Source: an uncultured Clostridia bacterium
Lineage (GTDB): Bacteria; Bacillota; Clostridia; Christensenellales; UBA1242
Direction of reading: 5' to 3'
DNA: 64,000 bases
NCBI GenBank assembly: GCA_948442695.1
Contig: CAOJSF010000001.1
Coordinates: 73,342 to 137,341, forward strand
Of the stretch, positions 5,229 to 28,183 are shown in pieces. Every line of letters starts with the position of its first letter. Positions within the stretch are counted from its first letter, which is position 1. A model generated the notes under the pieces. The model saw nothing but the letters and a program-made list of their open reading frames with translations. It had not been told where the DNA came from and ran no database searches. The translations under genes were made by a program, and so were the position numbers.

Positions 5229-5303
5229 GTTCCCATAGTAAAGTGGATATTACAAACCCCTCCTAAGGGTTAGTCACAGGTTCGAGTCCTGTTGGGAACA
5301 CCA
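5229..5303 (+). tRNA. tRNA-Arg(CCT), copy 1
   Basis: Hand-folded cloverleaf: acceptor GTTCCCA/TGGGAAC, D stem GTAA/TTAC, anticodon stem AACCC/GGGTT with loop CTCCTAA, T arm ACAGG-TTCGAGT-CCTGT, and an encoded CCA. Confidence 0.8.
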
Positions 5304-9868: not shown

Positions 9869-9945
<77 letters not shown>

Positions 9946-11474: not shown

Positions 11475-12515
11475 ATGGATAAATTAAAAATTGAATATCT
11501 TGACATAGATAAACTTAATCATTATGCGAATAACTGCAAAATACATACAAAAGAGCAAATTGAGCATATAGCAAATTCAATTAAAGAATTTGGATTTAAT
11601 GACCCGCTTGGAATTGCGGGTAAAGATAATATTGTGCTTGAAGGAAATGGAAGAGTTGAGGCGGCAAAACTTTTAGGAATGACAAACTTGCCTTGCGTTA
11701 GACTTGACCATATGACTAGTGAAGAACAACAAGCATATGTTATTGCTCACAATTCGACAAATATCGAAACGGGATTCGATAGTAAAGTGCTTTTGAATGA
11801 ACTTGATAGATTGCAGGCTAATTTTGACTTTAAAGACTTTGGTGTAAAAAATGAAATGTTTGAAATGGCAGAACGAGATGATTTTTATAAAGATTTTCTT
11901 TCCTTAAAAAAGAAGAAACTTGTAAGAAATGAATTTGAGATGGTAGGAGATTATGATTTGCCTCTTATTAAAAAGCAAGATATTGATATAGAAAAAATAG
12001 AACTGATGAATTTTAATAATACAAAATATAACGATACAAGAAACAAGCATAAAACTATTCAATTTTTTACTTATGATTATAAATTTGATTATGTATATTC
12101 GCATCCTGAGTTCGCGGTAGAAAAGTTAAAACAATATTATTGTTTACTTTCTCCAGATTACAGTTTATATACAGATATGTCTTTATCTTTACAAATAAAA
12201 AATACATTTAAGAATCGCTGGTGTGGAGTTTATTTTCAAAGTTTAGGACTAAGAGTTATCCCAACAATAGAATGGAGTGACGAAAGGAGTTTTAAATTTT
12301 GTTTTGATGGAGTTGAAAAAGGAAGTGTTGTGGCTGTGTCTACATATGGTAAACAAAAAATAGAGGAGGAATTTATGAAAGGTTATAATAAAATGTTGGA
12401 AATTATCAAACCAAGTGATATAATATGTTATGAAAAGCCTTTTCCCAAAATGGGAGGAAAAATAAAAGCATTCCCATATTACCATAATGAATGGAGGGAG
12501 TGCTATGAAATTTAA
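11475..12515 (+). CDS. ParB-like N-terminal domain fused to a DUF4417-like domain
   Basis: N-terminus: IEYLDIDKLNHYANNCKIH ... EGNGRVEAAKLLG (ParB/sulfiredoxin-like). C-terminus: FFTYDYKF ... KNRWCGVYFQSLGLRVIPTIEWS ... VVAVSTYG, paralogous to 16391-17127. Confidence 0.6.
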   Translation: MDKLKIEYLDIDKLNHYANNCKIHTKEQIEHIANSIKEFGFNDPLGIAGKDNIVLEGNGRVEAAKLLGMTNLPCVRLDHMTSEEQQAYVIAHNSTNIETGFDSKVLLNELDRLQANFDFKDFGVKNEMFEMAERDDFYKDFLSLKKKKLVRNEFEMVGDYDLPLIKKQDIDIEKIELMNFNNTKYNDTRNKHKTIQFFTYDYKFDYVYSHPEFAVEKLKQYYCLLSPDYSLYTDMSLSLQIKNTFKNRWCGVYFQSLGLRVIPTIEWSDERSFKFCFDGVEKGSVVAVSTYGKQKIEEEFMKGYNKMLEIIKPSDIICYEKPFPKMGGKIKAFPYYHNEWRECYEI

Positions 12516-13128: not shown

Positions 13129-13978
13129 ATGAGTGTAATATATAAACCATGCGGAATGGCGAGAGAATATAGTCCTTATGCTTTGAATTTGTATATAGGG
13201 TGTTCGCACAGGTGCAGGTATTGTTATGCGCCTCACACTTTGCAAAGAAGAGGTGTGGACTATTTTGGAAAGCCAGAGCCACGAAAGGATATTTTAAAGT
13301 TACTTGAAAAAGACCTACAAAAGAATGTATATAAAGATCAGGTGCTTTTGTCGTTTGTTGGAGATGTTTATTGCGATAATGCAGATGATAGCGTAACCAC
13401 AAGAGAGGCTTTGAAACTTCTAAATTTATACAAAGTGCCAGTTGCGGTTCTTTCAAAAGGCGGGAAGAAGATGCTTCGAGATTTGGACATATTTAAAGAA
13501 TTTGGCGATCGCATAACCGTTGGCACAACACTCACATTTTTAGATAATAAGAAAAGCGAAGTTTGGGAGCCGTTTGCGTCTTTGCCAGAAGATAGGCTAT
13601 ATACACTTAAAACCTTGCATGAAAATGGAATAAAAACTTTTGCAAGTTTTGAGCCAACGATTGAACCAGAAGAGAGTTTAAAACTTATTCGAAGAACGCT
13701 TAAAGATAATTCTGTCGACCACTACAAAATAGGGAAAATTAACAATTACAAAAATGAAGACAAGTGGCAAGACTGGGGGAAATATTTACAAGATTGTGTA
13801 GATTTTGTTTCGTCCAACTGGAAAACAAGTTTATTACAAATTTTGTTTAAGAAAACTTGCTCCCGATATTGAACTGACGGAAGCAGAGAAAAATCCCGAT
13901 GAATACATAGTGAGAATTAAAGAAGAAGGGGAACAACTGAGTTTGTTTGATAAGACAAATAAAGATTCAAAAAAATAA
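13129..13978 (+). pseudogene. SplB/COG1533-like radical SAM protein, C-terminus frameshifted
   Basis: YIGCSHRCRYCYA cluster motif. After about 13805 a second frame continues plausibly (RPTGKQVYYKFCLRKLAPDIELTEAEKNPDEY...) to the stop at 13976-13978. Confidence 0.55.
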
Positions 13979-14302: not shown

Positions 14303-14776
14303 TTAGTTAAATTCTTGTAAAAAATCCGTATTTATAACTTCTATCCATAGGTCTTTTAGAAGTATACCATTTATATTTGCTTTTTCGGCAAGATCATCAA
14401 TTGATTGATATAATTGTTCTTCGTGAGTGTTTATATTTAATAGCATATCGCATTTTTCAAAATCATTATATAAAATGCCGTATCTGTTGTTACGATAAGT
14501 AAACTCAACTTCACCATAATGTTTATATGCTTCAATAAAATCATCGAAATTGGATAAAACAGCAGATTTGCCTTCTTTAAATTGTTTTTGAGCATTGTTA
14601 AGTGAGGGGATATTTCTTATCCCTGCGATGTCAGGATGCTGAAACGATTCTTCTGATTGTCTCCAGCCACAATTGGGGCAAGCATCTCCATTTCCATATT
14701 CGCTAATTTTAATATTGCTTCCGCATACATTGCACTTTGAAATTTTATTTTTTAAATTTGGATACTTAATTATCAT
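14303..14776 (-). CDS. CPCC-type zinc-ribbon protein with an immunity-like C-terminal domain
   Basis: CNVCGS...GNGDACPNCGW at the N-terminus. The C-terminal domain is paralogous to 12782-13078. Confidence 0.55.
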   Translation of the reverse strand: MIIKYPNLKNKISKCNVCGSNIKISEYGNGDACPNCGWRQSEESFQHPDIAGIRNIPSLNNAQKQFKEGKSAVLSNFDDFIEAYKHYGEVEFTYRNNRYGILYNDFEKCDMLLNINTHEEQLYQSIDDLAEKANINGILLKDLWIEVINTDFLQEFN

Positions 14777-14800: not shown

Positions 14801-15247
14801 CTACATATATTTTGGATTTTCAACTTTATCCCATATATCTCTGACATATATATCGCCAATTTTTGCGTTTGCAATAAAGTCTTCTTTATCTTTAAAATAA
14901 TTAAGAGTTTTTTTACTGCCAATTTCAATGTTAGCATCTTCGCTAGGCCAAAACAAACTAAAACTATCACCTTTATATTCGAATTCTGTTTCACCATAAA
15001 AATTCAACATATCTAAAAAGTCCTCTAGTGATGGTTTTAATGGTTTGCCCTCAGAAACAAGTTCTCGTGCTTTATTCTCTGAGACAACATTTGGAAACAT
15101 AACATAATCTTCATTGTCACCATTAGTGATTGAATTGTACCAGCCACAATATGGACATTCGCCATTACCACTGCTATCTACCAAAAGAATTTTACCACAA
15201 ACTGAACAGATTTTTTCAATATTTTTTTCAAACGGATTTTTTTTCAT
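14801..15247 (-). CDS. CPCC-type zinc-ribbon protein with an immunity-like C-terminal domain
   Basis: CSVCGK...GNGECPYCGW. The C-terminus reads FLDMLNFYGETEFEYKG...IGDIYVRDIWDKV. GGAGAG RBS before the Met at 15247. Confidence 0.55.
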   Translation of the reverse strand: MKKNPFEKNIEKICSVCGKILLVDSSGNGECPYCGWYNSITNGDNEDYVMFPNVVSENKARELVSEGKPLKPSLEDFLDMLNFYGETEFEYKGDSFSLFWPSEDANIEIGSKKTLNYFKDKEDFIANAKIGDIYVRDIWDKVENPKYM

Positions 15248-15258
15248 ATTCTCTCCAT

Positions 15259-15561
15259 TTAACAATAATCCATATTAATTTCGGGGCCATATTCTTGTCT
15301 TTCTTTTCCTCTAGGTTTTGTATAGTCCCAATAATGATCGTGCGGGAATTTGTGATTATTATGGTCATTTTTATGATCCCAATCTCTATCCCATATAGCC
15401 CATCCATCTGGGCCAAACCATCTTTGCTGAGGTAGTTTTCCTGTTATTTCATCATAGTAGTCGATTCTAATATTAGGCTTTTCACTCCAAATTTGAGGGA
15501 TGTTAGATCTATATGGTCCATACATATCAAACTTTCCACCGCTTGGTTTACACATACCCAT
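15259..15561 (-). CDS. Small His-rich protein with a PHDHYW motif, paralog of 12505-12771
   Basis: AGGAGG RBS. QQRWFGPDG...WDRDWDHKNDHNNHKFPHDHYW. Confidence 0.6.
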   Translation of the reverse strand: MGMCKPSGGKFDMYGPYRSNIPQIWSEKPNIRIDYYDEITGKLPQQRWFGPDGWAIWDRDWDHKNDHNNHKFPHDHYWDYTKPRGKERQEYGPEINMDYC

Positions 15562-16390: not shown

Positions 16391-17127
16391 CTAAATTTCG
16401 GGATAAAGTTCACCAGCTAAATATTTTTTAGTAAATTCAGTGAGTCCCATTTTTTCAATAAGTTCTTCTTTATTGAAAGGATCGATTGCTTTGATATTTC
16501 CTTTCATTTCAGAAAAAGGCTCACCATAACAAATAATTGCGCTTGGTTTTATCTTTTCCATCATTTTTTCTAACCTTCCATAAAGCCTTTTTTGTTGTCT
16601 TCTCTGGTATAGGTTGATACAGCCACAACACTTACTTCTTCAACTCCATCAAAGCAAAATTCAAAACATCTATAAGATCCCCATGAAATTGTTGGGATTA
16701 CTATCATTCCTTGTTTTTGCCAAAACGCTCCACACCATCTGTTTTTAAAAACGCTATCAATCTGACGTGCAAGCGGCATATCTTTGTAAGTGCTAAATTC
16801 AGGGGTAAGCAGGGCGTAATATTGGTCTAATCTTTCAAGTGCTATTTCAGGTTTTTGATAAACAGTTTCAAAATTCCAATCGTATGTAAAGAAATGTATT
16901 GTTTTATCTTTATTTTCACTATCGTTTAATTTGGTTTTTGTGTAATTCCATAGACTTATCTTGTCTAAGTCTATATTTTGTTTTCTAATGAGTGGCATTC
17001 CATATTTACCACATTTTTCAAACTCGTTTCTTACGAGTCTTTGTTTCTTTTTTCGCTTTTCATCTTCGTAATCAGACACATTGTCTGCAGCAGAAAAAAG
17101 CGAACTTAATTGTTCACTTGTATACAT
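16391..17127 (-). pseudogene. DUF4417-like protein without a ParB domain, 1-nt frameshift near the C-terminus
   Basis: ORF 17127-16570 ends ...GFMEG*. A 57-aa ORF (16564-16391) continues colinearly with the paralog (MMEKIKPSAIICYGEPF vs KMLEIIKPSDIICYEKPF). One missing T at GGTT(T)AG would fuse the two. Confidence 0.6.
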
Positions 17128-17570
17128 ATTTTCTCCTTTAAAAATTTTGCTTACAATATCTGTCGGCTGAGCCATTCCAAATATCTTGCTTTTTTATTTT
17201 TTCAAACAAGAAGAGCCTAAGTTATATAGTTAAACATTATGGGGAATGAATAATGTTAACTAATTCTTAGGTTGTTCATGTTTTGTTTTTAAAATTGTAA
17301 GTTATCCTTTGACAGGGCAAACAATTATTTATTCTTATTATATTATATATTTTTATAAAATGAAAGGAAGAGTTACAAAAATTTAATATGAGAGAGGAGA
17401 TATATTAAAATAATTGATAGTATTATAAACACTTTGGTATAACTTTGGTATAATTTTGGTACAGAAGTTGCTTAAAAATATGAAAATTATTAAATAATAC
17501 TCATAAACATGCTTAAAATTATATAAATTACTGCAAAAAATGAAGAAATTACATAGAAATTAATTTAAAG

Positions 17571-17857: not shown

Positions 17858-18523
17858 ATGGTAATAGCAATTGAAGGAATGGATGGTAGTGGAAAAAGTT
17901 CTGTTGCAAAAGCTCTTGCAGTAAAGTTTGGATACGAATATAGAGATATGCCCAACAAATATTTCTTAGAATTTTCAGATGAAGGTTTTCAAAAAATTTG
18001 TGATAAGATATATAAATTCCCAGACAATACTATTAAAGGTTGGTTTTTTGGCTTTGGTAACATACTTGCCTCGCAAAATGTAGGAAAGGGTGTAATTATT
18101 GACAGGCATCTTCTTTCAAACTACTTTTGGAATGGAAATAATAACAATAAGGGGATGTATAAGGAACTTATTTCGATTACAGGCAAACCAGATTTGACCA
18201 TTGTTTTATATGCCGGAGTGAAAGAGCGGATGAGAAGAATTTATAAAAGAAGTGCAACTGATAGAGATTTAGATGATGATGAAAAAAAGGTACTTGGATA
18301 TGATAAAATGATATCTTTTGCGAAACAAGAAAAAATGCCATATTTAGTAATAAATACTGAAATTTATAGATTGGATAGAACAATAAAAATTTGTGAGTGC
18401 TTGATTAAAAAGATAGAGAAATTAGAGAAATCTCAAATTGCTGAATTTGTGGATGCAGTAAACCAAAGATTATATATAGAAAAAAATCAACCATATTCAG
18501 AGTTGCTTAACAATGAAATATAA
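17858..18523 (+). CDS. dTMP kinase / (d)NMP kinase-like P-loop protein
   Basis: IAIEGMDGSGKSSVAKAL Walker A and an IIDRHLLSNYFW block resembling the thymidylate kinase DRY region. Confidence 0.6.
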   Translation: MVIAIEGMDGSGKSSVAKALAVKFGYEYRDMPNKYFLEFSDEGFQKICDKIYKFPDNTIKGWFFGFGNILASQNVGKGVIIDRHLLSNYFWNGNNNNKGMYKELISITGKPDLTIVLYAGVKERMRRIYKRSATDRDLDDDEKKVLGYDKMISFAKQEKMPYLVINTEIYRLDRTIKICECLIKKIEKLEKSQIAEFVDAVNQRLYIEKNQPYSELLNNEI

Positions 18524-18587: not shown

Positions 18588-19046
18588 ATGTTATTAGACC
18601 AATATGGATATGAGCAATTAGATGAGTTGATAAAAAAAGAAACAGTTAGATTAAAACGAGCTGTTTCACAAAAGGCTCATGCTTATCAAAATGATACAAA
18701 TACATGGCATGATAATTCTGAATTTGATAATGCAGTTGAAAAAGAAGATGCGGCAATAAATGAAATAAATAAATTGATTGAAATCAAAGCTGACGCAGAT
18801 ATCCTAGAAAAACATATGCAAACAGATAAAATTGATGTTGGTGATATAGTAACAGTGGATATAGAAGATGATGTATTTAATGTCATTCTTACCGGAAAGT
18901 ACATTGCTGATGCGGGTAAAGGTGAAATAACTTTAAATAGCCCATTAGGAAAAAATATCTATAAAAAGTGTAAGGGTGATATTGTTAAATATAAACATTT
19001 AGGAAACTTGTTTGTTGTCAAAATAATTGATTTTAAAAGAATTTAG
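18588..19046 (+). CDS. GreA/GreB-family protein, short Rnk-like form
   Basis: WHDNSEFDNAVEKEDAAINEI and C-terminal ITLNSPLGKNIYKKCKGDIV match Gre family blocks. It is too short for a full GreA coiled coil. Confidence 0.55.
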   Translation: MLLDQYGYEQLDELIKKETVRLKRAVSQKAHAYQNDTNTWHDNSEFDNAVEKEDAAINEINKLIEIKADADILEKHMQTDKIDVGDIVTVDIEDDVFNVILTGKYIADAGKGEITLNSPLGKNIYKKCKGDIVKYKHLGNLFVVKIIDFKRI

Positions 19047-19054: not shown

Positions 19055-19588
19055 ATGAAAATTGAATATGAAGTAAGATTTTTAAATATTGATAAAGAAA
19101 AAATAATAAGTAAATTGAAAGAACTTAAAGCTGAAAATGAGGGTGAAAAACTTCAAATTCGCAAGACTTATGATTTGATTAAACCTCAACCAAATAGCTG
19201 GGTTAGGTTAAGAACAAATGGAGAAAAAACAACTTTAACAATAAAAGAAATTAAAAATGCAAAAATTGATGGAACAAATGAACTTGAGGTTGCCGTAAGT
19301 GATTTTTTTGAAACTGATGAAATTCTAAATAAAATTGGCTTAAAGGCGAGAAATTACCAAGAAAATAAAAGACATCAATTTCACTTAAATGGGGTTGAAA
19401 TTGATGTTGATTCATGGCCACTTATTCCAACATATTTAGAGATAGAAGGAGAAAATGAAGCGAGTATCATTAACGCATGTAAACTTCTTGATTTAGATTA
19501 TGAGTCTTCAACTTCAATGGACATAACTGATATTTATAATAAAGTTTATAATATAGATTTGTTAAGTATAAAAGAATTAAAATTTTAA
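19055..19588 (+). CDS. CYTH-domain protein (CyaB-type cyclase / triphosphatase family)
   Basis: Begins KIEYEVRFL and has RLRTNGEKTTLTIKE and LEIEGENE strands typical of the CYTH tunnel fold. Confidence 0.6.
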   Translation: MKIEYEVRFLNIDKEKIISKLKELKAENEGEKLQIRKTYDLIKPQPNSWVRLRTNGEKTTLTIKEIKNAKIDGTNELEVAVSDFFETDEILNKIGLKARNYQENKRHQFHLNGVEIDVDSWPLIPTYLEIEGENEASIINACKLLDLDYESSTSMDITDIYNKVYNIDLLSIKELKF

Positions 19589-19589: not shown

Positions 19590-20267
19590 ATAAAGTAGGA
19601 GGCAAAAACCTTCCTTTTTTATTTCATTTTCATCAAAATCATCTTTAAGATGTATGCAAACAACTTTGTGACGAAATTCTTTTGGAATTTGTTTTTTGAT
19701 ATCTTCAAATCCGATATGATAACTATTGCTTTTATATAATCGTGTGTCAATAAATAATCTTTCAATTTCATTATTAATCAATTTTTCAAGTATGACTGAC
19801 AAAAGTTCATTTGTGTCGCCTGAAAAATAATAGTGTTTTCCGCTAATTGTAAATAAATATCCATAAGAATAGCAAGTGTTATGGTGCTGCTTATAAAATT
19901 CAGTATTTATTTTTTGAAATCTTTTTTTTATACATTAACTGACAATCTGACTTATCAAGTCCAAAAATGTTTACCAAATGTTTTAAAAGTTTTTTGTTGG
20001 GGAAATAGATGCAAATATCTTTATTGGTAAATCCAATTGTTTCTAAATAAAAAACAAGTGTTCCAAGACTTCCGCAATGGTCGGAATGTGTATGGGTTAA
20101 AAAATGTTAATACTATTCACATTATTAAAACTATTCTTTTCTTTTGCTACTTTAAAAATACTTTCGTCACAGTCAAATAAATTTAGAGTACCATTATCAA
20201 TATAAAATGTGGATGTATTTTCATTTTTTATTGCAAAAGAAGAACCAAATCCTAAAAATTTCAACAT
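19590..20267 (-). pseudogene. MBL-fold metallo-hydrolase, at least two homopolymer frameshifts
   Basis: MLKFLGFGSSF...INIF* then (L)THTHSDHCGSLG in another frame (T-run near 20100). A second shift lies in the A-run near 19925. The start overlaps the LysR stop. Confidence 0.65.
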
Positions 20268-21172
20268 GATTTTTCCTTGTTATTTTTACTTAAATAATCT
20301 ATAAATGATTTAATTTTTGAATTGTTGTTTTCTTTCTTAGTAATAAGACATAGAGGAATTGAAGGAAGTGTATTATTAATAGACATTTTGCAAAGTATTC
20401 CATTTTGCAACAATTCTTTTACTGCACTTTCAAAAACATAGCCAATTACATTTCCGCCAAGTATTAGGTCTATTGTAACTTGAGTTGAATTGCTTTGATA
20501 GGATGGGGTTAGGCTTAAATTTTCTTTGTTTAACAATAAATTTAATGAATTTCTGATATTTGAATTTTCTCGAGGAAGAACTATTTGAAATTTAGAAATT
20601 TCCCTGAGATTTGTTGCGTTAGAGAAAAGATAATGACTTTCTTTTGCATAAACGAAACACATCTTTTCAAGTTTTATTGTTTCTAAATCATATTCATTAC
20701 TGTTTATGCTAATAGGGGCAGTATCTATAATGAAATCAATTTCATGATTTTTTAATTTATTAATTAATGTCGCTGTTGAGTCATCATGAAAAACTAATTT
20801 AACACTAGGATTCTTTTTAATAAACGATTTAATCCTATTTTTAAAAAAAAGATAGATATGGCTTTGCATTCCAAATGCAATTTGTTCTGACTCTGTTTTA
20901 TTTTCCATGATTTGATGGCACTCGTTCACTGTGGTGATAATTTCTTTAACTTTAGAAAATAAAAGAGAACCTTTTTTTGTCATTTTAACGCCGTTTTTAT
21001 TTCTAATTATAAGTTCTTCTCCAAAATGTTCTTCAAGTTGTTTTATAGCATAGCTGATAGAAGGTTGAGAAATGCAAAAATATTCGCTTGCTTTAGTAAA
21101 ACTGCCAAGTTTACAAACTTCATAAAAATATTTTAAGTTGTTAAAGTTTAAATTAAATAAATTTATATCCAT
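20261..21172 (-). CDS. LysR-family transcriptional regulator
   Basis: The N-terminal HTH reads LKYFYEVCKLGSFTKASEYFCISQPSISYAIKQLEEHFG. Divergent from the 21304 operon. Confidence 0.85.
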   Translation of the reverse strand: MDINLFNLNFNNLKYFYEVCKLGSFTKASEYFCISQPSISYAIKQLEEHFGEELIIRNKNGVKMTKKGSLLFSKVKEIITTVNECHQIMENKTESEQIAFGMQSHIYLFFKNRIKSFIKKNPSVKLVFHDDSTATLINKLKNHEIDFIIDTAPISINSNEYDLETIKLEKMCFVYAKESHYLFSNATNLREISKFQIVLPRENSNIRNSLNLLLNKENLSLTPSYQSNSTQVTIDLILGGNVIGYVFESAVKELLQNGILCKMSINNTLPSIPLCLITKKENNNSKIKSFIDYLSKNNKEKSC

Positions 21173-21303
21173 ATATCTATAATATATTTTTATATAAACA
21201 CATGTCAAGTTAAATAAGATAAATTCAATTTATGCATCAATAAAAATTTTGTATTTGACTTTTCTTTTATGCTGTGTGAAAATAAAAAAAGTGAGGTAGT
21301 GTA

Positions 21304-23379
21304 ATGGAAATTTTATATCCAGTAGGAAGTAAAGAACATGTTGAAAATGCAATAAAATCCAAAGCAAATGCTGTTTATGGTGGATTTCAACTTTTTAATG
21401 CAAGAAATAAAGCGAAAAATTTTACCACAAATGAACTTGTAGAAGCAATAAATAAGTGTCATGAGAATGGCTTAAAATTTTATTTAACATTAAATACATT
21501 AATGTTGGATGAAGATATTGAAAAAGTAATACATATTTTAAAAAATATTAATGTTAAGCCCGATGCTTTTATTAGTGCCGATATTGGGCTTTGTCAAAAA
21601 TTGAAAGAGGAGTTTCCAGATGTTGAGCTTCATGCTTCAACACAATTTGGAATCTCGAATATTAAAGATGCACAATTTGCAGAAAAATTTGGATTTAAGA
21701 GGGTAATATTGGCTCGAGAAATGACTGAAAAAGAAATTGAACTTGTAACAAATAATATTAATATAGATTCAGAAGTCTTTGTTTGGGGAACGCAATGTGT
21801 TAGTTTTTCTGGCTCTTGTTTTTTAGGTTCTTTAATGAATGGTGGTACTGCAAATAGAGGAAAATGTATAACTTTATGTAGAGATAAGTATCTTTTTAAT
21901 GATGCAGGTGAAATGGGCAATTATTTATATGTTCCTGACTTGAATTGTATTAATAGTGCTAAAAAGGGGAAGGCGATATCATTAAAAATTGAAGGAAGAA
22001 GAAGGCCTGTTGCGCAATTAAATGATGTTGTAAAGGAAATAAAAGGTGAATTAAAACCCAATGAAGAAAAAGGATTTTATTTGGGTGAAAATTTAGAAAA
22101 AAATCATTTATTTGAAAGGGTAAATAATAGACAAAAGTTTGCTTTTAAACATAATAAAAATTTCCCTTTAAAAAAAGAAGATGTTTGGATTTATGAAAAT
22201 AACGGTGAGTTTTATTATATTTCTAAAGACACTATACTACAAAATGAATGTTTTTATTTATATTCAGAGTGGAAACTTCCTTTTAAAGAAAATCTAAAAA
22301 ATGTTTCAATGGAAATAAATCAAAAAAATGGAATAGTTCAAAGTATAATGTTTTTAAATTATAAGGGAGAGGCAAAACATTTTTATCTCAAAAATCATGA
22401 AGATAAATATAAAAGTATAGAATTATTAAAAGATTTGTATAAAATTTTAAATATAAATATTTATAGTATAAAGTTTAAAAAGGAAAATGAGAATCAAGAT
22501 ATTTTAATATCGGTACAGATGTTTGAGGAAATAGAAAAATATATTTTAAAGTTATCAAAAGCGGAGAGAAATTTTTCTTATATGTCTAGTGCATTGAAGA
22601 AAGTATATGTTGAAACTGAAAATCTTAATCTTGCGTATGAACTTTCTAGTGAGGAAATTCCAATTATAGTAAATTTAGAAACTTTTGAAATGTTTGAAAA
22701 ACTTGAAATCAATAGATTTAAAGATAAAGAAAAAACTATATTTAAACTTCCATTTTTCAATTTTAGAAATAAAGATATGTCAAATTATTTAAAGAAAATT
22801 GAAGGGTTTGGCGTAATGTTAACAAAATTTTCTCAAATTGAAGATGTTAATAAGTTTAAGTTTGGTAAAATTTTTGTTGATTATCTTGTTCCAGTTTGGA
22901 ATCATCATTCAAGAGAGTTTCTTGAAAAACTTGGTATAAAAAACTTTTGTGCAAGTCCGGAATTGAGTTTTGAAGAAAATATGAATATCTTTGAAGATGC
23001 AAATGAAGTATGTTTGTTGCTAGGCGGAAAACCAACATGTGTTTATTCTAGACAGTGTTTTAAAAAAGCTATAAGTTGCTTAACTTGTATTACATCAAAT
23101 AAAAACATAAAAAATATTGATAGAGATATAGATTTTGAACTAAATTGTTATGCAGATCATAGAACAATGAATTATAAAACTAACATTCTGAATCCATATA
23201 ATTGTAAAAAGGAAAATGTATCTTATAGATTTGTAGAAAGAGGTATGAGCATTCAAGATATAAAGCAAATTTTGACTATGGTGAAAAATGATAGCTACTA
23301 TGAAAATTTATTAAAAGTAGATTTATTTAAAAATTCATTTTCAAATATGTTAGAGGAGGATAAAAGAATTGAAAACTAA
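21304..23379 (+). CDS. U32-family protein, long form (collagenase-like peptidase / O2-independent hydroxylase family)
   Basis: ILYPVGSKEHVENAI..ANAVYGG...NARNKAKNF...LHASTQ...VILAREM...VWGTQCVSFSGSCFLGS...ANRGKCITLCRDKY. The C-terminal extension carries a second ASPELSFEE-like segment. Confidence 0.75.
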   Translation: MEILYPVGSKEHVENAIKSKANAVYGGFQLFNARNKAKNFTTNELVEAINKCHENGLKFYLTLNTLMLDEDIEKVIHILKNINVKPDAFISADIGLCQKLKEEFPDVELHASTQFGISNIKDAQFAEKFGFKRVILAREMTEKEIELVTNNINIDSEVFVWGTQCVSFSGSCFLGSLMNGGTANRGKCITLCRDKYLFNDAGEMGNYLYVPDLNCINSAKKGKAISLKIEGRRRPVAQLNDVVKEIKGELKPNEEKGFYLGENLEKNHLFERVNNRQKFAFKHNKNFPLKKEDVWIYENNGEFYYISKDTILQNECFYLYSEWKLPFKENLKNVSMEINQKNGIVQSIMFLNYKGEAKHFYLKNHEDKYKSIELLKDLYKILNINIYSIKFKKENENQDILISVQMFEEIEKYILKLSKAERNFSYMSSALKKVYVETENLNLAYELSSEEIPIIVNLETFEMFEKLEINRFKDKEKTIFKLPFFNFRNKDMSNYLKKIEGFGVMLTKFSQIEDVNKFKFGKIFVDYLVPVWNHHSREFLEKLGIKNFCASPELSFEENMNIFEDANEVCLLLGGKPTCVYSRQCFKKAISCLTCITSNKNIKNIDRDIDFELNCYADHRTMNYKTNILNPYNCKKENVSYRFVERGMSIQDIKQILTMVKNDSYYENLLKVDLFKNSFSNMLEEDKRIEN

Positions 23380-24079
23380 AAGTATTTGGGGAAATCCGCC
23401 AAAAAGATTATATAAATTGTTAAATATTTTAAAATCAGAAAATCGTGAGAATGTAGAAATATGTATAGTAGGTTGCTCTGATGGTAAGTTTTTAATGCCA
23501 TTTGCTCGAGCAGGAATAAAGGTTACAGGATATGATATTGATGAAATCGCATTATATGGTGGTGAAAAACTTTTCCCAATAAAAGAAGTAAATATAAAGT
23601 ATGAATTTAATACAAAATTCAAGAGTAAAGATTTTCCTCTTGAAAAAAGAAGGGTATATGGTGTTTGCGAACGCTTGCATTTAGAAAATTTAGAATCATT
23701 TGCAAATGTAAAACTTTTGGATTTTTACAAAAATACACCAAGCGATTCTTTTGACTTAGTATTTACAAGTTGTTCATTACATTATTCAAAAAATGCAGAA
23801 TATAGTTTGCAAGACAAGGTGCAAAAGCTAGGAAGTATAGTTAAGAAAGGAGGATATCTTTATCTTGATTATATGATGGCAATTGTTGAAGATGATTATG
23901 AAAATTTTCCTGAAAGTAAATTTTTTAGAAAAGGACAAATAAAAAATATGCTTAGTGATTGTTTTGAAATAATTTACAATAAGGAGAATTTTAATCCTAG
24001 TTTTGAAGGTGCTCATGTAGATTGTGTAAAAGATCACTTTCATAGATTCGGCTATATTTTTGCAAGGAGAATAAAATGA
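23369..24079 (+). CDS. Class I SAM-dependent methyltransferase
   Basis: Motif I-like IVGCSDGKFLMPFARAGIKVTGYDID and a DLVFTSCSLHY block. Overlaps the upstream gene by 11 nt. Confidence 0.65.
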   Translation: MKTKSIWGNPPKRLYKLLNILKSENRENVEICIVGCSDGKFLMPFARAGIKVTGYDIDEIALYGGEKLFPIKEVNIKYEFNTKFKSKDFPLEKRRVYGVCERLHLENLESFANVKLLDFYKNTPSDSFDLVFTSCSLHYSKNAEYSLQDKVQKLGSIVKKGGYLYLDYMMAIVEDDYENFPESKFFRKGQIKNMLSDCFEIIYNKENFNPSFEGAHVDCVKDHFHRFGYIFARRIK

Positions 24080-24831
24080 ATATTGAACTGTGTTGGAATA
24101 TAACTGCTAATTGTAATCAAGCTTGTAAATACTGTCATAGATTTATAGGGTTACAGAATTTATCAAAAGAGGAAAATATACAAATTTTAAACAATATTAT
24201 AGAAAGTGGGTGTGATAATATTACATTTACTGGAGGCGAAGCTCTTTTAATTGATTATTTAGAAGATCTTTTATCATATTCTCATTCGCACAAAATAAAA
24301 AACAAATTAATTACAAATGGTGTTTTATTAACAGAGGAAAGATTCTTGAAAATTAAAAACAATATTGACAAAATTAATCTATCTATAGATAGTTTAAACA
24401 ATGACACTAATATCCTATTAGGTAGAGGAGATAGGCATGTAGAAATCATAAAAAAAAGAATAGTAATGATAGAGAATAGTGATGTAGAGCTATCAATAAA
24501 TTCTGTCATGACAAGATTGAATATTGATGACATGTTTGAACTAGGAATATATTTATCTTCTATGAAAATAGAACAATGGAGAATTTTTAAGTTTATGCCA
24601 TTAAGAGAAAGGGCAAAAGAAAATGAAGACAAATTTTCAATATCGAGAGAAATATTTGATGAAAATATAAAAAAATTACAAAAGATGTTTCCGAAATTAA
24701 ATATAGTGACGAGAGATGTTGGTGAGTTTGAGAAACTTTATTTATTAATTCTTGCCAATGGCGATATTTATCAAACGAAAGAAGGAAAAGATGTTAAAAG
24801 AGGGAATGCTCTAGAAAATAAAATTTTATAA
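24076..24831 (+). CDS. Viperin-like radical SAM enzyme (candidate prokaryotic viperin, short form)
   Basis: CNQACKYC cluster motif, then FTGGEALL, LSIDSLNNDTNILLGRG, SINSVMTRLN and EQWRIFKFMP blocks, colinear with the viperin/RSAD2 motifs as I remember them. ATGA start/stop overlap with the methyltransferase. Confidence 0.65.
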   Translation: MNIELCWNITANCNQACKYCHRFIGLQNLSKEENIQILNNIIESGCDNITFTGGEALLIDYLEDLLSYSHSHKIKNKLITNGVLLTEERFLKIKNNIDKINLSIDSLNNDTNILLGRGDRHVEIIKKRIVMIENSDVELSINSVMTRLNIDDMFELGIYLSSMKIEQWRIFKFMPLRERAKENEDKFSISREIFDENIKKLQKMFPKLNIVTRDVGEFEKLYLLILANGDIYQTKEGKDVKRGNALENKIL

Positions 24832-25240
24832 AAAGGTGATAAATGTTGTAAGAATACAATGAGAAAATTGTAATTATAGCTTGCAATGATTTCAATGTTA
24901 GGTATAAATATTTTTATGTTTTATAAAGGAAGCTTTGGTGCGAATTACTTTTTAAAATCATTTCAAACATATAATATTAGTATAGAATTCTTAATAATAT
25001 AATTATAAGTGTATATGAAGACAAACTTGAATTGCAAGAACTTAAACATAGATATTTTAATAAAAACGCATATAAAGTAAATATAATAAAGAAAAATAAA
25101 AAAGAAATTTAATATAGGTACATTAAAAATTTAATAAAAATAGGTATATGCTATATCAAGTTGTCTATGAAAAGTAGGAAATTGAACATTATAGGAAAAA
25201 CCACCAGGTTCACTGGTGGATTTTTATTTTAAATTCTATT

Positions 25241-25730
25241 TATGAACACCTCTATGAGATCGCATTTTAAATAAAGCAGAAATGAAACTATGATAATATC
25301 CTATAAATTTTTTTCGTCAAGAAGTTTTAATATTTCTTTTTCGGAAGCCCATTTTACTGCTTGAACTTCTTGATCTGGGAATTTTACAATGTTTGCATCA
25401 AGGTCTTTTTCGATAAAATAGAAATCGTCAAAGCCATTGTTAAAATTTATTGTCATAAATGCTCTTTCATTTTCAAAATTTGTTCAATACTGAGTTCTTC
25501 ACTGAGTTTTCTGTGTGCTGCTAGTTTTAAATTTTTACCTGTTTGAACGCAGCCTCCTAAAGTGATATCCCAAATATTGGCTAAGACTTCTTACTTGAAT
25601 GTCTTTGTTGAATAAGCATTTCTCCATTGCTATTAAAAATACAAATATGTATAACAAGTCTGCATAATTGTTTGGACATTTGTCTCCTTGAATGATTGTT
25701 TTTCCGATAAGTTGTCGATCTTCATATTAT
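25241..25730 (-). pseudogene. NUDIX hydrolase, multiple frameshifts
   Basis: The fragments EDRQLIGKTIIQGDKCPNNYADL, HICIFNSNGEMLIQQRHSSKKS, LANIWDITLGGCVQTGKNLKLAAHRKLSEELSI and NNGFDDFYFIEKD..VKWASEKEILKLL lie in different frames. Confidence 0.6.
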
Positions 25731-26316
25731 AAATAAAAAGATCCATAATATCTTCCATTTATTATAATTTATTTTATCATTTATAAAAATTTATTGAATA
25801 AACATTATATATGTAAATAAACTTATTTTGAGATTTATTAAATAGAAAATTTGTTTATAATAAATTTTTTTGTGTAAGAATAAAATTTATTGTTATAGAA
25901 TAGATTTTAAAAAATCAAAATAGTAGGTAGAATGAAATATGTAAATATGATTTCTAAACTATTTATAAAATAGTAAAAAATATAATTATACTTATTTTAG
26001 AAATTTTTGACAATACGCAAGTTAATTAAGTATTTAATAAATTATAAAAATTTTATTAAATTATAATGATTAAGATTAAAAAATTAAACCTATATTGATG
26101 ATAGTTTATTAGTTATATTATATTAAAGAGGTTGAATATTTTAAGGGTTGACTATTTTATTGTTAAAAACTTTATATATATTGTGTATATTATTTTTAAG
26201 AAATCTTTGTAAATTCTATGTTTATATTAATTTTTAAGAAATTTTGAGAAAATTGTTTAATTTTGTTTTGCCTTAGACAAAATGTATGTTATATTAATTT
26301 TGTTTTAGGAGTGTTT

Positions 26317-26902: not shown

Positions 26903-28183
26903 ATGAAAATTTCTGTTATGACATTAGGTTGCAAAGTCAACAAGTATGAGAGTGATGCACTGATAAATAAATTGAATGCTTTGGGGTTTGAAACATCAGA
27001 CAAGTTGGAGTTTGCTGATGTCTTTGTTATAAACACCTGTGCGGTGACTTCAGAGGCTGAAAAGAAGTCTAGGCAGATGATTGCAAGGTGTAAAAAATTC
27101 AATAATTTTGCAAAGATTTTTGTCTGTGGATGTGCGTCTCAGCATAACGGAAAACAGTTTTTGGATAAGGATGTTGAAGTAGTTTGCGGGACAAGTGGGA
27201 AGTTGAAAATAGTTGAATTTATTGATAATTTAGCCAAAAATGACAAAATTTTTAAAAAAAATGGCATTTTTATTGAAAATTTGCCTGAAATTTATCAAGA
27301 TGACTTGATTGCAAGCCAAAATAGAACAAGGGCATATATCAAAATTCAAGACGGTTGCAACAATTTTTGTTCTTATTGCATCATCCCATATTTGAGAGGG
27401 AGAAGCAGGTCAAGAGACCTTTCTTCAATCTTGAATGAAGCCAGTTTGTTGGGTGAGGAAATAAAAGAAATTGTTTTGACAGGAATCAATGTGGCTGACT
27501 ATAAAATTGACGGAAAACCTGGTCTTTTGAAACTGCTTCAAGAACTTGACAAGTGTGGAAAGCGACTAAGATTGAGTTCTATGGAAGAGGGGCTTATTAG
27601 TGAAGAGTTTGCAGAAGGTTTATCAAAACTTAAAAATTTCTGTCCTCATTTTCATCTTTCATTGCAAAGTGGAAGTGATGGTGTTTTGAGGAGAATGAAT
27701 AGGCATTATAGTGCTGAAGAATTTTTTAGTTCTGTGAGTGTATTAAAAAAATATTTTCCATATGCTGGCATAACCACAGACATAATTGTTGGGTTTCCTA
27801 ATGAGAGTGAAGATGAATTTGACGAGACATATGAATTTGCAAAAAGGGTAGAATTTAGCCAACTTCATATTTTTAAGTATTCACCTCGTGAAGGGACCGC
27901 ATCTTATAAGTTGTTTAAAGATTTGCCACATGAGATAAAACAGGCTAGGCTTGAAAGGCTTGAAAACCTTAATAACAATTTAAAAGAAAAATTTATTGAA
28001 GAAAATAAACATAACAAATGTTTAAATGTCCTTTTTGAAGAAAAGGTTGATGATTTTTATGTAGGTTATACAGAAAATTATATAAGGTGTTATTTGCAAA
28101 GTGAAAGTGATGTGACAAATAAAATTTTGCAGGTTCAAATTTTGGACAAATTCAGAGATGGAGCAAGATGCAATTTAATCTAA
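26903..28183 (+). CDS. mtaB: tRNA methylthiotransferase, MtaB-like
   Basis: N-terminal MTLGCKVNKYESD and a radical SAM CNNFCSYCIIP motif. Domain order fits the MiaB/MtaB family. Confidence 0.8.
   Translation: MKISVMTLGCKVNKYESDALINKLNALGFETSDKLEFADVFVINTCAVTSEAEKKSRQMIARCKKFNNFAKIFVCGCASQHNGKQFLDKDVEVVCGTSGKLKIVEFIDNLAKNDKIFKKNGIFIENLPEIYQDDLIASQNRTRAYIKIQDGCNNFCSYCIIPYLRGRSRSRDLSSILNEASLLGEEIKEIVLTGINVADYKIDGKPGLLKLLQELDKCGKRLRLSSMEEGLISEEFAEGLSKLKNFCPHFHLSLQSGSDGVLRRMNRHYSAEEFFSSVSVLKKYFPYAGITTDIIVGFPNESEDEFDETYEFAKRVEFSQLHIFKYSPREGTASYKLFKDLPHEIKQARLERLENLNNNLKEKFIEENKHNKCLNVLFEEKVDDFYVGYTENYIRCYLQSESDVTNKILQVQILDKFRDGARCNLI

What the first reader, a model, noticed from the sequence alone, without database searches (positions are those of the whole stretch)
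20261..24831. LysR-linked operon pairing a viperin-like radical SAM enzyme with a long U32-family protein and a SAM methyltransferase
Seen in the sequence:
- Three + strand genes are translationally coupled. 21304-23379 and 23369-24079 overlap by 11 nt, and 23369-24079 and 24076-24831 share ATGA.
- They are divergent from a LysR regulator.
- The last protein (251 aa) has the CNQACKYC radical SAM motif.
- It also has blocks colinear with viperin/RSAD2 as I remember it: FTGGEALL (FSGGEPFL), LSIDSLNNDTNILLGRG (ISCDSFDEEVNVLIGRG), SINSVMTRLN (KINSVINRFN), EQWRIFKFMP (VRWKVFQCL) and LYLLILANG (SYLILDEY).

Established knowledge:
- Prokaryotic viperins are antiviral enzymes that make 3'-deoxy-3',4'-didehydro-NTP chain terminators. 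As far as I recall they typically sit beside nucleotide kinases.
- U32-family proteins (TrhP, RlhA, UbiU/UbiV) are O2-independent hydroxylases, and two of them act on pyrimidine C5 in RNA.

Inference: dehydration, hydroxylation and methylation activities encoded in one operon could make a further-tailored ddh-nucleotide, or a modified nucleoside or RNA. I do not recognise this gene context as described. The enzyme is shorter at the C-terminus than typical viperins, so its substrate or role may differ.
Basis: partly seen in the sequence, partly recalled or inferred. Interest (0 to 1): 0.85.

Follow-up and report, generated by a model that had tools for sequence, protein, structure and literature searches.

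The report
Viperin-like nucleotide-tailoring gene cluster
An uncultured gut bacterium carries a conserved, regulator-controlled gene cluster that pairs a relative of the antiviral enzyme viperin with an oxygen-independent hydroxylase, a methyltransferase, nucleotide kinase/phosphatases and an RNA-polymerase-binding factor, most likely to build a previously undescribed modified pyrimidine nucleotide.

Summary
In detail: the genes, overlaps and motifs are as described. The radical SAM protein is viperin-like by profile, PDB sequence search and predicted fold (TM 0.87-0.89). It is not a canonical viperin:
- It scores 132.8 bits against NCBIfam's 180-bit cutoff.
- It falls in a sister clade to curated prokaryotic and eukaryotic viperins.
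- It lacks the C-terminal RGG tail and three basic residues invariant in canonical viperins.

The U32-MTase-rSAM trio is strongly conserved: all 20 U32-bearing genome loci and 23 of 24 metagenomic loci. It also includes a thymidylate-kinase-like kinase, a GreA-like factor with an invariant WHDN tip, a CYTH protein, an MBL/Apyc1-like gene (a pseudogene here), and LysR with a conserved operator. Relatives add a HAD phosphatase, a second MTase and a cytidine-deaminase-like gene.

The long U32, MTase and kinase also occur with NrdD-like reductases, and the rSAM also occurs alone with LysR. These are separable nucleotide-modifying modules.

Best reading: a pathway for a base- and sugar-modified pyrimidine nucleotide analogue. 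The chemistry is inferred, not shown. No held paper describes this association.

The parts
17858..18523 (+). Thymidylate-kinase-like NMP kinase (221 aa, P-loop GMDGSGKS)
   Evidence: Pfam Thymidylate_kin 45.4 bits. PADLOC PDC-M51B E=2e-17 and VakA E=4e-9. Present in 22 of 24 metagenomic and 20 of 20 U32-bearing genome loci. About 37% identical kinases accompany distant long-U32 genes.
18588..19046 (+). GreA-family factor of a distinct subfamily with an invariant WHDN coiled-coil tip (152 aa)
   Evidence: Pfam GreA_GreB 36.6 bits. TIGR01462 54.8 bits, below its 139-bit cutoff. WHDN is conserved at 90% or more in 32 cluster-linked homologs. Present in 19 of 24 metagenomic loci.
19055..19588 (+). 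CYTH / triphosphate-tunnel metalloenzyme-like protein (177 aa, N-terminal E-x-E-x-R)
   Evidence: Pfam CYTH 36 bits. Best PDB sequence hit is the TTM Saci_0718. Present in 22 of 24 metagenomic loci. E4 and E6 conserved across 56 homologs.
19597..19615 (+). Terminator-like hairpin closing the kinase-GreA-CYTH operon
19599..20267 (-). Pseudogene of an MBL-fold, Apyc1-like phosphodiesterase (5 in-frame stops)
   Evidence: tblastn with the intact 228-aa L001 gene gives 65% identity over 226 aa. The translation shows 5 stops. Intact copies in L001-L004 carry PF23023/Lactamase_B.
20261..21172 (-). LysR-type transcriptional regulator (about 303 aa from the ATG at 21172; the ORF is listed to 21208)
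   Evidence: Pfam HTH_1 64.4 bits and LysR_substrate 75.3 bits. It is the constant partner of this rSAM family (63 of 80 loci). It occurs fused to the rSAM in P0285 and P0309.
21219..21233 (.). Palindrome ATAAATTCAATTTAT (T-N11-A, LysR-type box)
   Evidence: Conserved as ATAAAT-N3-ATTTAT in five clusters, down to 47% U32 identity.
21255..21283 (+). Promoter-like TTGACT-17-(TG)GAAAAT for the U32 operon
   Evidence: the -35 hexamer is invariant in the alignment.
21304..23379 (+). Long U32-family protein (691 aa). Domains: N-terminal U32 barrel with CX6CX15CX3C (C165/172/188/192), a beta-rich middle domain, and a C-terminal second barrel-like domain with its own four conserved Cys (C585/592/595/615).
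   Evidence: Pfam Peptidase_U32 147.9 bits. TrhP 150 bits and UbiU 121 bits, both far below their cutoffs. Full-length homologs extend down to about 30% identity. Invariant Cys. AF2 pLDDT 88.6 and Foldseek top hit 5d88. hhalign of N-half against C-half E=1.9e-4.
23369..24079 (+). Class I SAM methyltransferase of an uncurated subfamily (236 aa; IVGCSDGK...GYDID...FTSCSL; invariant EAAH...DHFHRFG)
   Evidence: Weak Pfam Methyltransf_11 (29.7 bits, above the 21.2-bit cutoff) and Methyltransf_31 (28.2 bits, above 27). No NCBIfam family match. Alignment A3. 42-55% identical copies accompany distant long-U32 genes.
24076..24831 (+). Short viperin-like radical SAM enzyme (251 aa, CNQACKYC)
   Evidence: PADLOC pVip E=4e-44. 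NF038283 132.8 bits against a 180-bit cutoff. Top 9 PDB sequence hits are viperins. AF2 pLDDT 92 and Foldseek TM 0.87-0.89 to viperins. Sister clade to curated viperins. Residue table.
25201..25219 (.). Bidirectional terminator-like hairpin downstream of the operon

Best explanation
Proposal: the locus is a LysR-controlled, two-operon pathway that makes a doubly modified pyrimidine nucleotide analogue.

Shown:
- The gene content, its conservation, and intact catalytic motifs.
- A viperin fold for the rSAM.
- A U32 Fe-S motif.
- A conserved LysR operator and promoter.

Inferred steps:
1. The long U32 enzyme hydroxylates the pyrimidine ring of a free cytidine or uridine nucleotide without O2, most plausibly at C5. 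This is by analogy with TrhP and RlhA, its nearest families.
2. The 236-aa MTase methylates that hydroxyl, giving a 5-methoxy base.
3. The short viperin-like rSAM performs viperin-type radical chemistry on the ribose (4'-H abstraction and 3'-dehydration). Its remodelled phosphate site suggests it acts on a mono- or diphosphate and not a triphosphate.
4. The thymidylate-kinase-like kinase, whose family accepts 5-substituted pyrimidine monophosphates, phosphorylates the product.
5. CYTH, together with the HAD phosphatase and MBL phosphodiesterase found in relatives, trims or recycles phosphorylated forms.
6. The GreA-like factor acts in the RNA-polymerase secondary channel. The most likely role is protecting or rescuing host RNAP from the chain-terminating product.

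The most likely biological role is conflict: antiviral, or otherwise growth-inhibitory toward a competitor or mobile element. LysR would switch the U32 operon on in response to a small-molecule cue.
For: - Viperin relationship.
- Trio and cluster conservation with fixed spacing.
- Translational coupling.
- Core of kinase-U32-MTase-rSAM-CYTH retained even in Alphaproteobacteria MAGs (L058-L061, L066).
- The U32-long, MTase and Tmk-like kinase recur with other enzymes that act on free nucleotides: NrdD/NrdG-like, Ham1, PfkB, cytidine deaminase and HD.
- Pyrimidine pointers: a cytidylate-kinase-rSAM fusion, and dCMP_cyt_deam-like genes in 9 of 24 loci.
- An rSAM-PfkB fusion and the loss of K120, K220, R245 and the RGG tail point to a non-triphosphate substrate.
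- The U32 carries the exact CX6CX15CX3C motif that is essential in known U32 hydroxylases (review PMC11574389).
- The GreA-like subfamily has an invariant tip and is tied to the full cluster.
- The LysR box and promoter are conserved.
- Distribution is patchy, rare, cross-phylum and gut-restricted. The cluster sits beside a tRNA-Arg integration hot spot or on ICE-like DNA.
- Eukaryotic viperins are also found fused to a 'triphosphatase or cyclase' domain (Shomar et al. bioRxiv 2023).
Against: - There are no biochemical data. Every chemical step is inferred.
- Known U32 hydroxylases act on RNA or quinones, never on free nucleotides.
- The rSAM is outside the curated viperin family and has an altered substrate site, so it may catalyse a different reaction.
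- About 60 of the 80 rSAM-family loci lack the U32 and MTase. Distant U32-MTase-kinase modules lack this rSAM. The two modules therefore need not act on the same molecule in sequence.
- LysR regulators are more typical of metabolic operons than of defence systems.
- Immediate neighbours are not recognised defence genes. In L005 and L006 the cluster sits among housekeeping genes.
- The MTase's regiochemistry is unknown.
- The MBL gene is dispensable here, being a pseudogene.
Confidence: 0.45

Rival explanations
1. It is an ordinary prokaryotic viperin defence gene with its kinase, making plain ddhCTP/ddhUTP. The U32 and MTase genes are unrelated neighbours, for example RNA-modification enzymes.
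For: PADLOC pVip models hit at E=4e-44 and the kinase hits VakA. The fold is viperin. Curated pVips also sit beside kinases.
Against: - The score is below the NF038283 cutoff, and the protein falls in a sister clade.
- It lacks the RGG tail and K120, K220 and R245.
- U32-MTase-rSAM are translationally coupled.
- They co-occur in 23 of 24 and 20 of 20 loci with fixed spacing.
- This MTase subfamily is found essentially only beside the long U32.
Confidence: 0.1
2. The cluster makes and senses a nucleotide second messenger. The rSAM, U32 and MTase build it. CYTH (cyclase or triphosphatase) and the MBL/Apyc1-like phosphodiesterase set its level. LysR is the receptor, and the GreA-like factor transmits it to RNA polymerase, analogous to ppGpp with DksA.
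For: - rSAM-LysR and rSAM-receiver fusions exist.
- LysR is the constant partner of the rSAM family.
- CYTH and an Apyc1-like MBL co-occur.
- The GreA-like subfamily has a unique invariant tip.
- The cluster is adjacent to RelA/SpoT in L005 and L006.
Against: - This is too many tailoring enzymes for a signal.
- The MBL gene is a pseudogene here.
- The Alphaproteobacteria versions have no LysR or GreA-like gene.
- No cyclase activity can be inferred for this CYTH; its best solved relative is a triphosphatase.
Confidence: 0.12
3. U32, MTase and rSAM modify RNA, for example hydroxylation and methylation of a tRNA or rRNA pyrimidine, as TrhP with TrmR makes mo5U.
For: The N-terminal U32 domain is closest to TrhP (150 bits). 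Known U32 enzymes hydroxylate C5 of U34 or C2501.
Against: - The TrhP cutoff of 534 bits is far from met.
- Partners are enzymes of free nucleotides: NMP kinase, CYTH, HAD, cytidine deaminase, NrdD-like, Ham1 and PfkB.
- The cluster is LysR-controlled, rare, patchy and horizontally distributed, unlike core RNA-modification genes.
Confidence: 0.1
4. It is a catabolic, salvage or detoxification operon for an exogenous modified nucleoside in the gut, induced through LysR by its substrate.
For: The architecture is LysR-divergent. Kinases and phosphatases are present. The cluster is restricted to the gut habitat. In some loci the context is housekeeping.
Against: There is no transporter, nucleoside phosphorylase/hydrolase or ring-opening enzyme in the conserved set. 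Methyltransferases and a GreA-like factor are not expected in catabolism.
Confidence: 0.08
5. It is a biosynthetic cluster for a secreted nucleoside antibiotic aimed at competing bacteria rather than at phages. The GreA-like factor would be the producer's self-resistance.
For: The enzyme logic is the same as in the best explanation. HAD, CYTH and MBL phosphatases could release a nucleoside. The distribution is patchy.
Against: There is no exporter in the conserved set. The kinase points to an intracellular phosphorylated end product. Some relatives sit on ICE or integrase-linked DNA, as defence cargo does.
Confidence: 0.1

Closest known systems
Prokaryotic viperins (pVips) with associated nucleotide kinases (Bernheim et al. 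2021; NCBIfam NF038283; PADLOC pVip/VakA)
   Same: - Radical SAM core and viperin fold (TM 0.87-0.89).
- Conserved GGE, SxDS, GRG, N-S/T-V and W-(K/R)-x-F blocks.
- Linkage to an NMP kinase.
- Patchy distribution.
   Different: - Sister clade; below the curated cutoff.
- About 25-30 residues shorter, with no RGG tail.
- H79, K120, K220 and R245 equivalents lost, and new basic residues at the H93 and Q250 positions.
- Always paired with LysR.
- Here embedded with the U32, MTase, GreA-like and CYTH genes.
TrhP/RlhA U32 hydroxylases and the ho5U-to-mo5U route (TrhP + TrmR/CmoB) in tRNA
   Same: U32 domain with the CX6CX15CX3C Fe-S motif, followed by a SAM methyltransferase. Hydroxylate-then-methylate logic on a pyrimidine.
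   Different: - 691-aa architecture with a beta domain and a second Cys-bearing barrel.
- No Peptidase_U32_C or DUF3656 domain.
- Partners indicate free nucleotides, not RNA.
- The MTase is unrelated to TrmR/CmoB at family level.
UbiU-UbiV heterodimer (two U32 proteins, each with a 4Fe-4S cluster)
   Same: Two U32-like modules working together. Each half here carries four conserved cysteines.
   Different: The modules are fused in one chain. The C-terminal half is highly diverged (hhalign E=2e-4, probability 48% only). The substrate context is nucleotides, not quinones.
Eukaryotic viperins fused to a 'triphosphatase or cyclase' domain (Shomar et al., bioRxiv 2023)
   Same: Association of a viperin-type enzyme with a CYTH-like activity.
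   Different: Here the genes are separate within an operon set, in bacteria, with additional tailoring enzymes.
Secondary-channel RNAP factors (GreA/GreB, Gfh1, DksA)
   Same: GreA N-terminal coiled coil plus C-terminal domain architecture.
   Different: A distinct subfamily with an invariant WHDN tip in place of the canonical acidic pair. Encoded inside a nucleotide-analogue cluster.

Membership tests
Viperin / pVip (radical-SAM nucleotide dehydratase) | CxxxCxxC radical SAM core with SAM-binding motifs | tested here: met
   CNQACKYC at residues 13-20. Pfam Radical_SAM 67.7 bits. GGE, SxDS and GRG are invariant in the family.
Viperin / pVip (radical-SAM nucleotide dehydratase) | Viperin three-dimensional fold | tested here: met
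   AF2 pLDDT 92. The top 17 Foldseek PDB hits are viperins or viperin-like enzymes, TMq 0.81-0.89, rmsd 2.3-2.8 A.
Viperin / pVip (radical-SAM nucleotide dehydratase) | Score at or above the curated cutoff of NCBIfam NF038283 (180 bits) | tested here: not met
   132.8 bits. Ten short relatives score 89-147 bits and ten long relatives 139-167 bits.
Viperin / pVip (radical-SAM nucleotide dehydratase) | Match to defence-database pVip profiles | tested here: met
   PADLOC PDLC02904 E=4.3e-44 (149 bits) and PDLC02903 E=8e-41.
Viperin / pVip (radical-SAM nucleotide dehydratase) | Branches inside the clade of curated or characterised viperins rather than with MoaA-type enzymes | tested here: not met
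   NJ tree with 100 bootstraps. It lies inside a viperin superfamily clade (100%) apart from MoaA-type outgroups. Within that clade it falls in a separate sister clade (100%) from curated pVips plus mouse and T. virens viperins. This is a distance tree only; no ML tree was possible.
Viperin / pVip (radical-SAM nucleotide dehydratase) | Basic residues and His that are invariant in canonical viperins around the nucleotide (mouse H79, K120, R194, K220, R245, K247) | tested here: not met
   R194 is kept and K247 is replaced by R. H79 is N, K120 is N/S/E, K220 is S in the window (S/T/N/R across the family) and R245 is Q/E/S. All seven canonical references keep them. The triphosphate-binding role of these residues is from my recollection of Fenwick et al. 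2020; that paper was not held.
Viperin / pVip (radical-SAM nucleotide dehydratase) | C-terminal extension with an RGG-x-Y/W tail | tested here: not met
   Present in curated pVips from Nostoc, Thiodictyon and Methanomethylovorans. Absent from the window protein and its whole family, which end about 8 residues after GNAL.
Viperin / pVip (radical-SAM nucleotide dehydratase) | Converts NTPs to 3'-deoxy-3',4'-didehydro-NTPs; protects against phage | not testable with these tools
   Requires enzymology, LC-MS and phage assays.
U32 O2-independent hydroxylases (TrhP, RlhA, UbiU, UbiV) | Peptidase_U32 domain with the CX6CX15CX3C Fe-S motif | tested here: met
   PF01136 147.9 bits against a 22.4-bit cutoff. 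C165-X6-C172-X15-C188-X3-C192 is invariant in 31 homologs. The motif definition is from PMC11574389.
U32 O2-independent hydroxylases (TrhP, RlhA, UbiU, UbiV) | Equivalog-level match to a characterised member | tested here: not met
   TrhP 150 bits against 534, UbiU 121 against 440, UbiV 38 against 275. Only the N-terminal third aligns with other U32 proteins.
U32 O2-independent hydroxylases (TrhP, RlhA, UbiU, UbiV) | Prephenate-dependent hydroxylation of an aromatic carbon | not testable with these tools
   Biochemical.
GreA/GreB transcript-cleavage factors | GreA N-terminal coiled coil plus GreA_GreB C-terminal domain | tested here: met
   PF01272 36.6 bits against 26.9. TIGR01462 aligns residues 9-148 to model positions 8-149 of 151.
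GreA/GreB transcript-cleavage factors | Curated GreA score and the canonical acidic tip (D41/E44 in E. coli) | tested here: inconclusive
   54.8 bits against a 139-bit cutoff. The tip carries an invariant WHDN, and the second acidic position is not conserved.
CYTH / triphosphate tunnel metalloenzymes | CYTH domain with the N-terminal ExExK-type motif | tested here: met
   PF01928 36 bits against 23.2. E4-x-E6-x-R8, with both Glu conserved in 56 homologs. Nearest solved relative is TTM Saci_0718. The class IV cyclase model scores below its cutoff (32.9 against 57.95).
LysR-type transcriptional regulators | HTH_1 plus LysR_substrate domains, divergent from the target operon, with a T-N11-A box | tested here: met
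   The palindrome ATAAAT-N3-ATTTAT is conserved upstream of the -35 in five clusters.

The most novel reading that the evidence does not exclude
The cluster is a new nucleotide signalling system rather than a weapon. A tailored pyrimidine nucleotide is made by the viperin-like rSAM, U32 and MTase. CYTH and an Apyc1-like phosphodiesterase set its level. A dedicated LysR (sometimes fused to the rSAM) senses it, and a WHDN-tipped GreA-like factor delivers it to the RNA polymerase secondary channel. This would be a Firmicute analogue of ppGpp with DksA.
Probability: 0.12. Interest if true: 0.95.

Novelty: new variant of a known kind. Interest (0 to 1): 0.8.

Why it matters
If the pathway works as inferred, four things follow:
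1. Viperin-type chemistry is combined in nature with base tailoring. That would give new natural nucleotide analogues, which are potential antiviral or antibacterial leads.
2. It would be the first U32 'oxidase' acting on free nucleotides, broadening a poorly understood class of O2-independent hydroxylases that is abundant in gut anaerobes.
3. It would define a large sister clade of viperins with a remodelled substrate site and obligatory LysR partnership.
4. It would suggest a Gre-factor-based way for a cell to live with its own chain terminator.

All four are directly testable with a cassette of five to eight genes.

Tried and rejected
- **Truncation:** I considered that the short C-terminus is a truncation or frameshift. 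Rejected, because 28 homologs share the length and the ending.
- **Phage origin:** I looked for the module in phages. There is no full-length long U32, MTase or rSAM in INPHARED, and no MTase in IMG/VR.
- **Defence island:** neighbours are DUF4417, a second radical SAM and CPCC proteins, with only a partial MTase_II hit in PADLOC. This did not help.
- **Viperin structural papers:** Fenwick 2017 and 2020, Lachowicz 2021 and Bernheim 2021 are not held. Residue roles therefore rest on my memory, while the conservation pattern is computed.
- **Second U32 domain:** Pfam on the U32 C-terminal half gave nothing and BLASTP between halves was non-significant. Only hhalign gave a moderate signal, so 'second U32 domain' stays tentative.
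- **GreA-like homology search:** it returned only 7 hits because of the word prefilter.
- **Database names:** there are none for any cluster protein.
- **MTase against the PDB:** only marginal hits.

Full report
**1. Observation**

The four ORFs exist as described. LysR probably starts at the ATG at 21172, giving 303 aa like its relatives, and not at the listed TTG at 21208. The U32 stop (23377-23379) overlaps the MTase TTG start (23369) by 11 nt, with GGAGGA upstream. MTase and rSAM share ATGA at 24076-24079, with AAGGAGA upstream. The rSAM carries CNQACKYC. The window is low-GC bacterial chromosome with a large SRP RNA.

**2. The radical SAM protein is viperin-like but not a canonical viperin**

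Evidence that it is viperin-like:
- Its best NCBIfam family is viperin_w_prok at 132.8 bits. The next is MoaA at 71.8 bits.
- PADLOC pVip models hit at E=4e-44.
- The nine best PDB sequence matches are all viperins or viperin-like enzymes, for the single sequence and for a 28-member profile.
- An AlphaFold2 model (pLDDT 92) has viperins as its top 17 Foldseek hits, with TM 0.81-0.89 and rmsd about 2.4 A.

Evidence that it is not canonical:
- The 132.8-bit score is below NCBIfam's 180-bit cutoff. The same holds for twenty sampled neighbours, both short and long forms.
- PGAP-annotated pVips from plasmids are only 23-31% identical to it.
- A bootstrapped NJ tree puts all viperin-type sequences together (100%) against E. 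coli MoaA and three other radical SAM outgroups. Inside that clade, curated pVips plus mouse and T. virens viperins form one group. The window family, with its short and long neighbours, forms a separate clade (100%).
- A column-by-column comparison shows canonical viperins share H79, K/R120, R194, K/R220, N222, R245, W246 and K247 (mouse numbering), and most of the full-length curated pVips an RGG-containing C-terminal tail. The window family keeps R194, N222, W246 and a basic residue at 247.
- In that comparison it has N at 79, N/S/E at 120, S in the window (S/T/N/R across the family) at 220 and Q/E/S at 245, and no tail. It ends about 8 residues after an invariant GNAL. It gains invariant basic residues at the H93 and Q250 positions.

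From my recollection of Fenwick et al. 2020, the lost residues and the tail clamp the triphosphate. That paper was not held. The natural inference is a nucleotide substrate with fewer phosphates. A fusion of this rSAM to a PfkB sugar/nucleoside kinase (P0241) points the same way.

**3. The neighbourhood is conserved and larger than reported**

Look-ups of homologs at 79%, 56% and 51% identity all returned the same set: a thymidylate-kinase-like kinase, GreA-like, CYTH, LysR, a U32 of about 690 aa, a 236-aa MTase and the rSAM. Some also carry an MBL/Apyc1-like gene, a HAD phosphatase, a second MTase and an M20 peptidase.

In the window these genes are at:

| Gene | Coordinates |
|---|---|
| Kinase | 17858-18523 |
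| GreA-like | 18588-19046 |
| CYTH | 19055-19588 |
| MBL-fold pseudogene (minus strand) | 19599-20267 |

The kinase-GreA-CYTH operon ends at a terminator. The MBL gene has five in-frame stops.

A scan of one genome per species returned 80 loci, almost all uncultured gut Clostridia and Bacilli MAGs, with a few Alphaproteobacteria ('Enterousia'). They sort as follows:
- 20 carry the long U32. All 20 also have the MTase at -710 to -730 bp from the rSAM, and the kinase.
- About 40 have only LysR followed by the rSAM. There the rSAM is fused to a receiver domain, next to a ToxN-fusion gene.
- About a dozen have CYTH-rSAM-LysR with a cytidylate-kinase-rSAM fusion, an MBL and a second CYTH-like gene.

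Using the MTase as marker, 55 metagenomic loci were found. Of the 24 with adequate flanks:

| Partner | Loci of 24 |
|---|---|
| Long U32 | 23 |
| Viperin-like rSAM | 23 |
| Kinase | 22 |
| CYTH | 22 |
| GreA-like | 19 |
| LysR | 18 |
| HAD | 17 |
| Second MTase | 15 |
| MBL | 11 |
| Cytidine-deaminase-like | 9 |

The Alphaproteobacteria versions reduce to kinase-U32-MTase-rSAM-CYTH.

**4. Modules**

The most distant full-length long-U32 proteins (30-34% identity) still sit beside a Tmk-like kinase (about 37% identical) and usually the MTase (42-55% identical). Their partner enzyme differs:
- an NrdG/NrdD-like pair in L088, L089, L124 and L125;
- on ICE-like DNA in L087, a MoaA-like rSAM with Ham1, PfkB, a cytidine-deaminase-like gene and an HD protein.

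So the long U32, MTase and Tmk-like kinase form one module, and LysR with the short viperin-like rSAM forms another. LysR is present in 63 of 80 loci. LysR-rSAM fusions P0285 and P0309 exist. The window's cluster is the union of the two modules. Every recurrent partner acts on free, mainly pyrimidine, nucleotides.

**5. The long U32**

- The N-terminal 250 residues are a U32 domain with exactly the CX6CX15CX3C motif (C165/172/188/192). That motif is essential in known U32 hydroxylases.
- The domain is closest to TrhP, then UbiU, but far below their cutoffs.
- The rest has no Pfam match. It is confidently modelled (pLDDT 88.6) as a beta-rich domain followed by a second beta/alpha domain.
- That second domain carries four conserved cysteines (C585/592/595/615).
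- Foldseek's top PDB hit is the only solved U32 structure.
- hhalign of the N-half against the C-half gives 158 columns in register with the Cys motif (E=1.9e-4, probability 48%). This suggests a fused, UbiU/UbiV-like pair, but it is not conclusive.

**6. Other parts**

- The MTase has a Rossmann SAM motif and an invariant His-rich C-terminal motif. It has no curated family.
- The GreA-like proteins form their own subfamily with an invariant WHDN at the coiled-coil tip.
- CYTH keeps its E-x-E motif, and its nearest solved relative is a triphosphatase.
- The LysR-U32 intergenic region holds a conserved ATAAAT-N3-ATTTAT palindrome (T-N11-A) just upstream of an invariant TTGACT and a -10 element. 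It persists down to clusters with 47% U32 identity.

**7. Context**

The cluster lies beside a tRNA-Arg(CCT) integration hot spot. In L002 it directly follows the tRNA. In the window a DUF4417/radical-SAM element (about 10.1-17.2 kb) is inserted between them. In L001 and L002 an integrase-bearing element follows the cluster. Neighbours are not recognised defence genes, and in L005 and L006 the cluster is among housekeeping genes. The module is absent from the phage collections.

**8. Interpretation**

The best-supported reading (confidence about 0.45) is a LysR-controlled pathway for a base- and sugar-modified pyrimidine nucleotide analogue:
1. The U32 hydroxylates the base, probably at C5.
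2. The MTase O-methylates it.
3. The viperin-like rSAM dehydrates the ribose by a radical route, on a non-triphosphate substrate.
4. The Tmk-like kinase, a family adapted to 5-substituted pyrimidines, phosphorylates the product.
5. CYTH, HAD and MBL trim or recycle phosphates.
6. The GreA-like factor acts at the RNAP secondary channel. Rescue from a chain terminator is therefore a plausible immunity mechanism.

All chemical steps are inferences from family membership and context. The rivals are plain pVip defence, a signalling nucleotide, RNA modification, catabolism, and a secreted antibiotic. They are listed with their evidence in the Rival explanations section.

**9. Novelty**

No held paper contains viperin together with U32 in a relevant sense, nor viperin with LysR and radical SAM, nor viperin with GreA. 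The broad viperin survey by Shomar et al. mentions kinases and a 'triphosphatase or cyclase' fusion, but none of the other partners. No source names any of these proteins. I classify it as a new variant of a known kind: a viperin-type nucleotide-analogue system.

**10. Limits**

- The tree is a distance tree only.
- Two eukaryotic references are partial sequences copied from tool alignments.
- MAG taxonomic labels may include mis-binned contigs.
- The library lacks most subscription-journal papers.

Noticed in passing
window 19599-20267 (-): Pseudogene of an MBL-fold, Apyc1-like phosphodiesterase, with five in-frame stops. It is intact in close relatives (L001-L004), so this cluster member is decaying in this genome.
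   Followed up: yes
window 5229-5303 and 9869-9945: Two tRNA-Arg(CCT) genes 4.6 kb apart. In L002 the cluster directly follows the tRNA-Arg. In the window a roughly 7-kb element (10.1-17.2 kb) lies between them, consistent with a tRNA-linked integration hot spot.
   Followed up: partly
window 11475-12515 (+), 16570-17175 (-), 13129-13872 (+): Two DUF4417 paralogs and a second, unrelated 247-aa radical SAM protein. The first DUF4417 protein has an N-terminal stretch that hits PADLOC MTase_II. The same gene set sits on the other side of the cluster, beyond an integrase, in L001 and L002.
   Followed up: partly
window 14303-14776 (-) and 14801-15265 (-): Tandem pair of small Cys-rich CPCC-domain proteins of unknown function.
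   Followed up: no
window 24832-26262: A 1.4-kb stretch downstream of the rSAM with no ORF of 110 aa or more. It contains a bidirectional terminator-like hairpin at 25201-25219. Relatives carry a second MTase, CYTH or an M20 peptidase at this position, but no remnants were detected by tblastn.
   Followed up: partly
L012 7702-11176: In about 40 mouse and rabbit gut Clostridia MAGs the same rSAM family is fused to a response-regulator receiver domain and preceded by LysR. Upstream is a ToxN (type III toxin) domain fused to a C-terminal region of about 200 aa that looks CYTH-like by eye but has no Pfam hit.
   Followed up: partly
L075 9442-14581: A complete 1.54-Mb Bacilli MAG chromosome carries this order: CYTH, viperin-like rSAM, LysR, a cytidylate-kinase fused to a second radical SAM domain, an MBL/Apyc1-like gene and another CYTH-like gene. 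It is a U32-free variant of the theme.
   Followed up: partly
L088 5893-11336; L089 3067-7372; L124/L125: The long U32, usually with the MTase and the Tmk-like kinase, is directly coupled to an NrdG/NrdD-like anaerobic ribonucleotide reductase pair instead of the viperin-like rSAM. This suggests a 2'-deoxy counterpart of the same base-modified nucleotide.
   Followed up: partly
L087 6373-17894: Next to an integrase and a giant polyvalent protein of more than 3700 aa (ICE-like), a 12-gene set combines the long U32, a cytidine-deaminase-like gene, Tmk-like kinase, an Orn/Arg decarboxylase-like gene, Ham1, PfkB, the MTase (55% identical), a MoaA-like rSAM, cupin, HD and Fe-ADH genes.
   Followed up: no
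window 26903-28183 (+) and 45709-45975 (-): An MtaB/MiaB-type methylthiotransferase (UPF0004 + radical SAM) and a large bacterial SRP RNA. These are ordinary housekeeping genes that mark the window as chromosomal.
   Followed up: no
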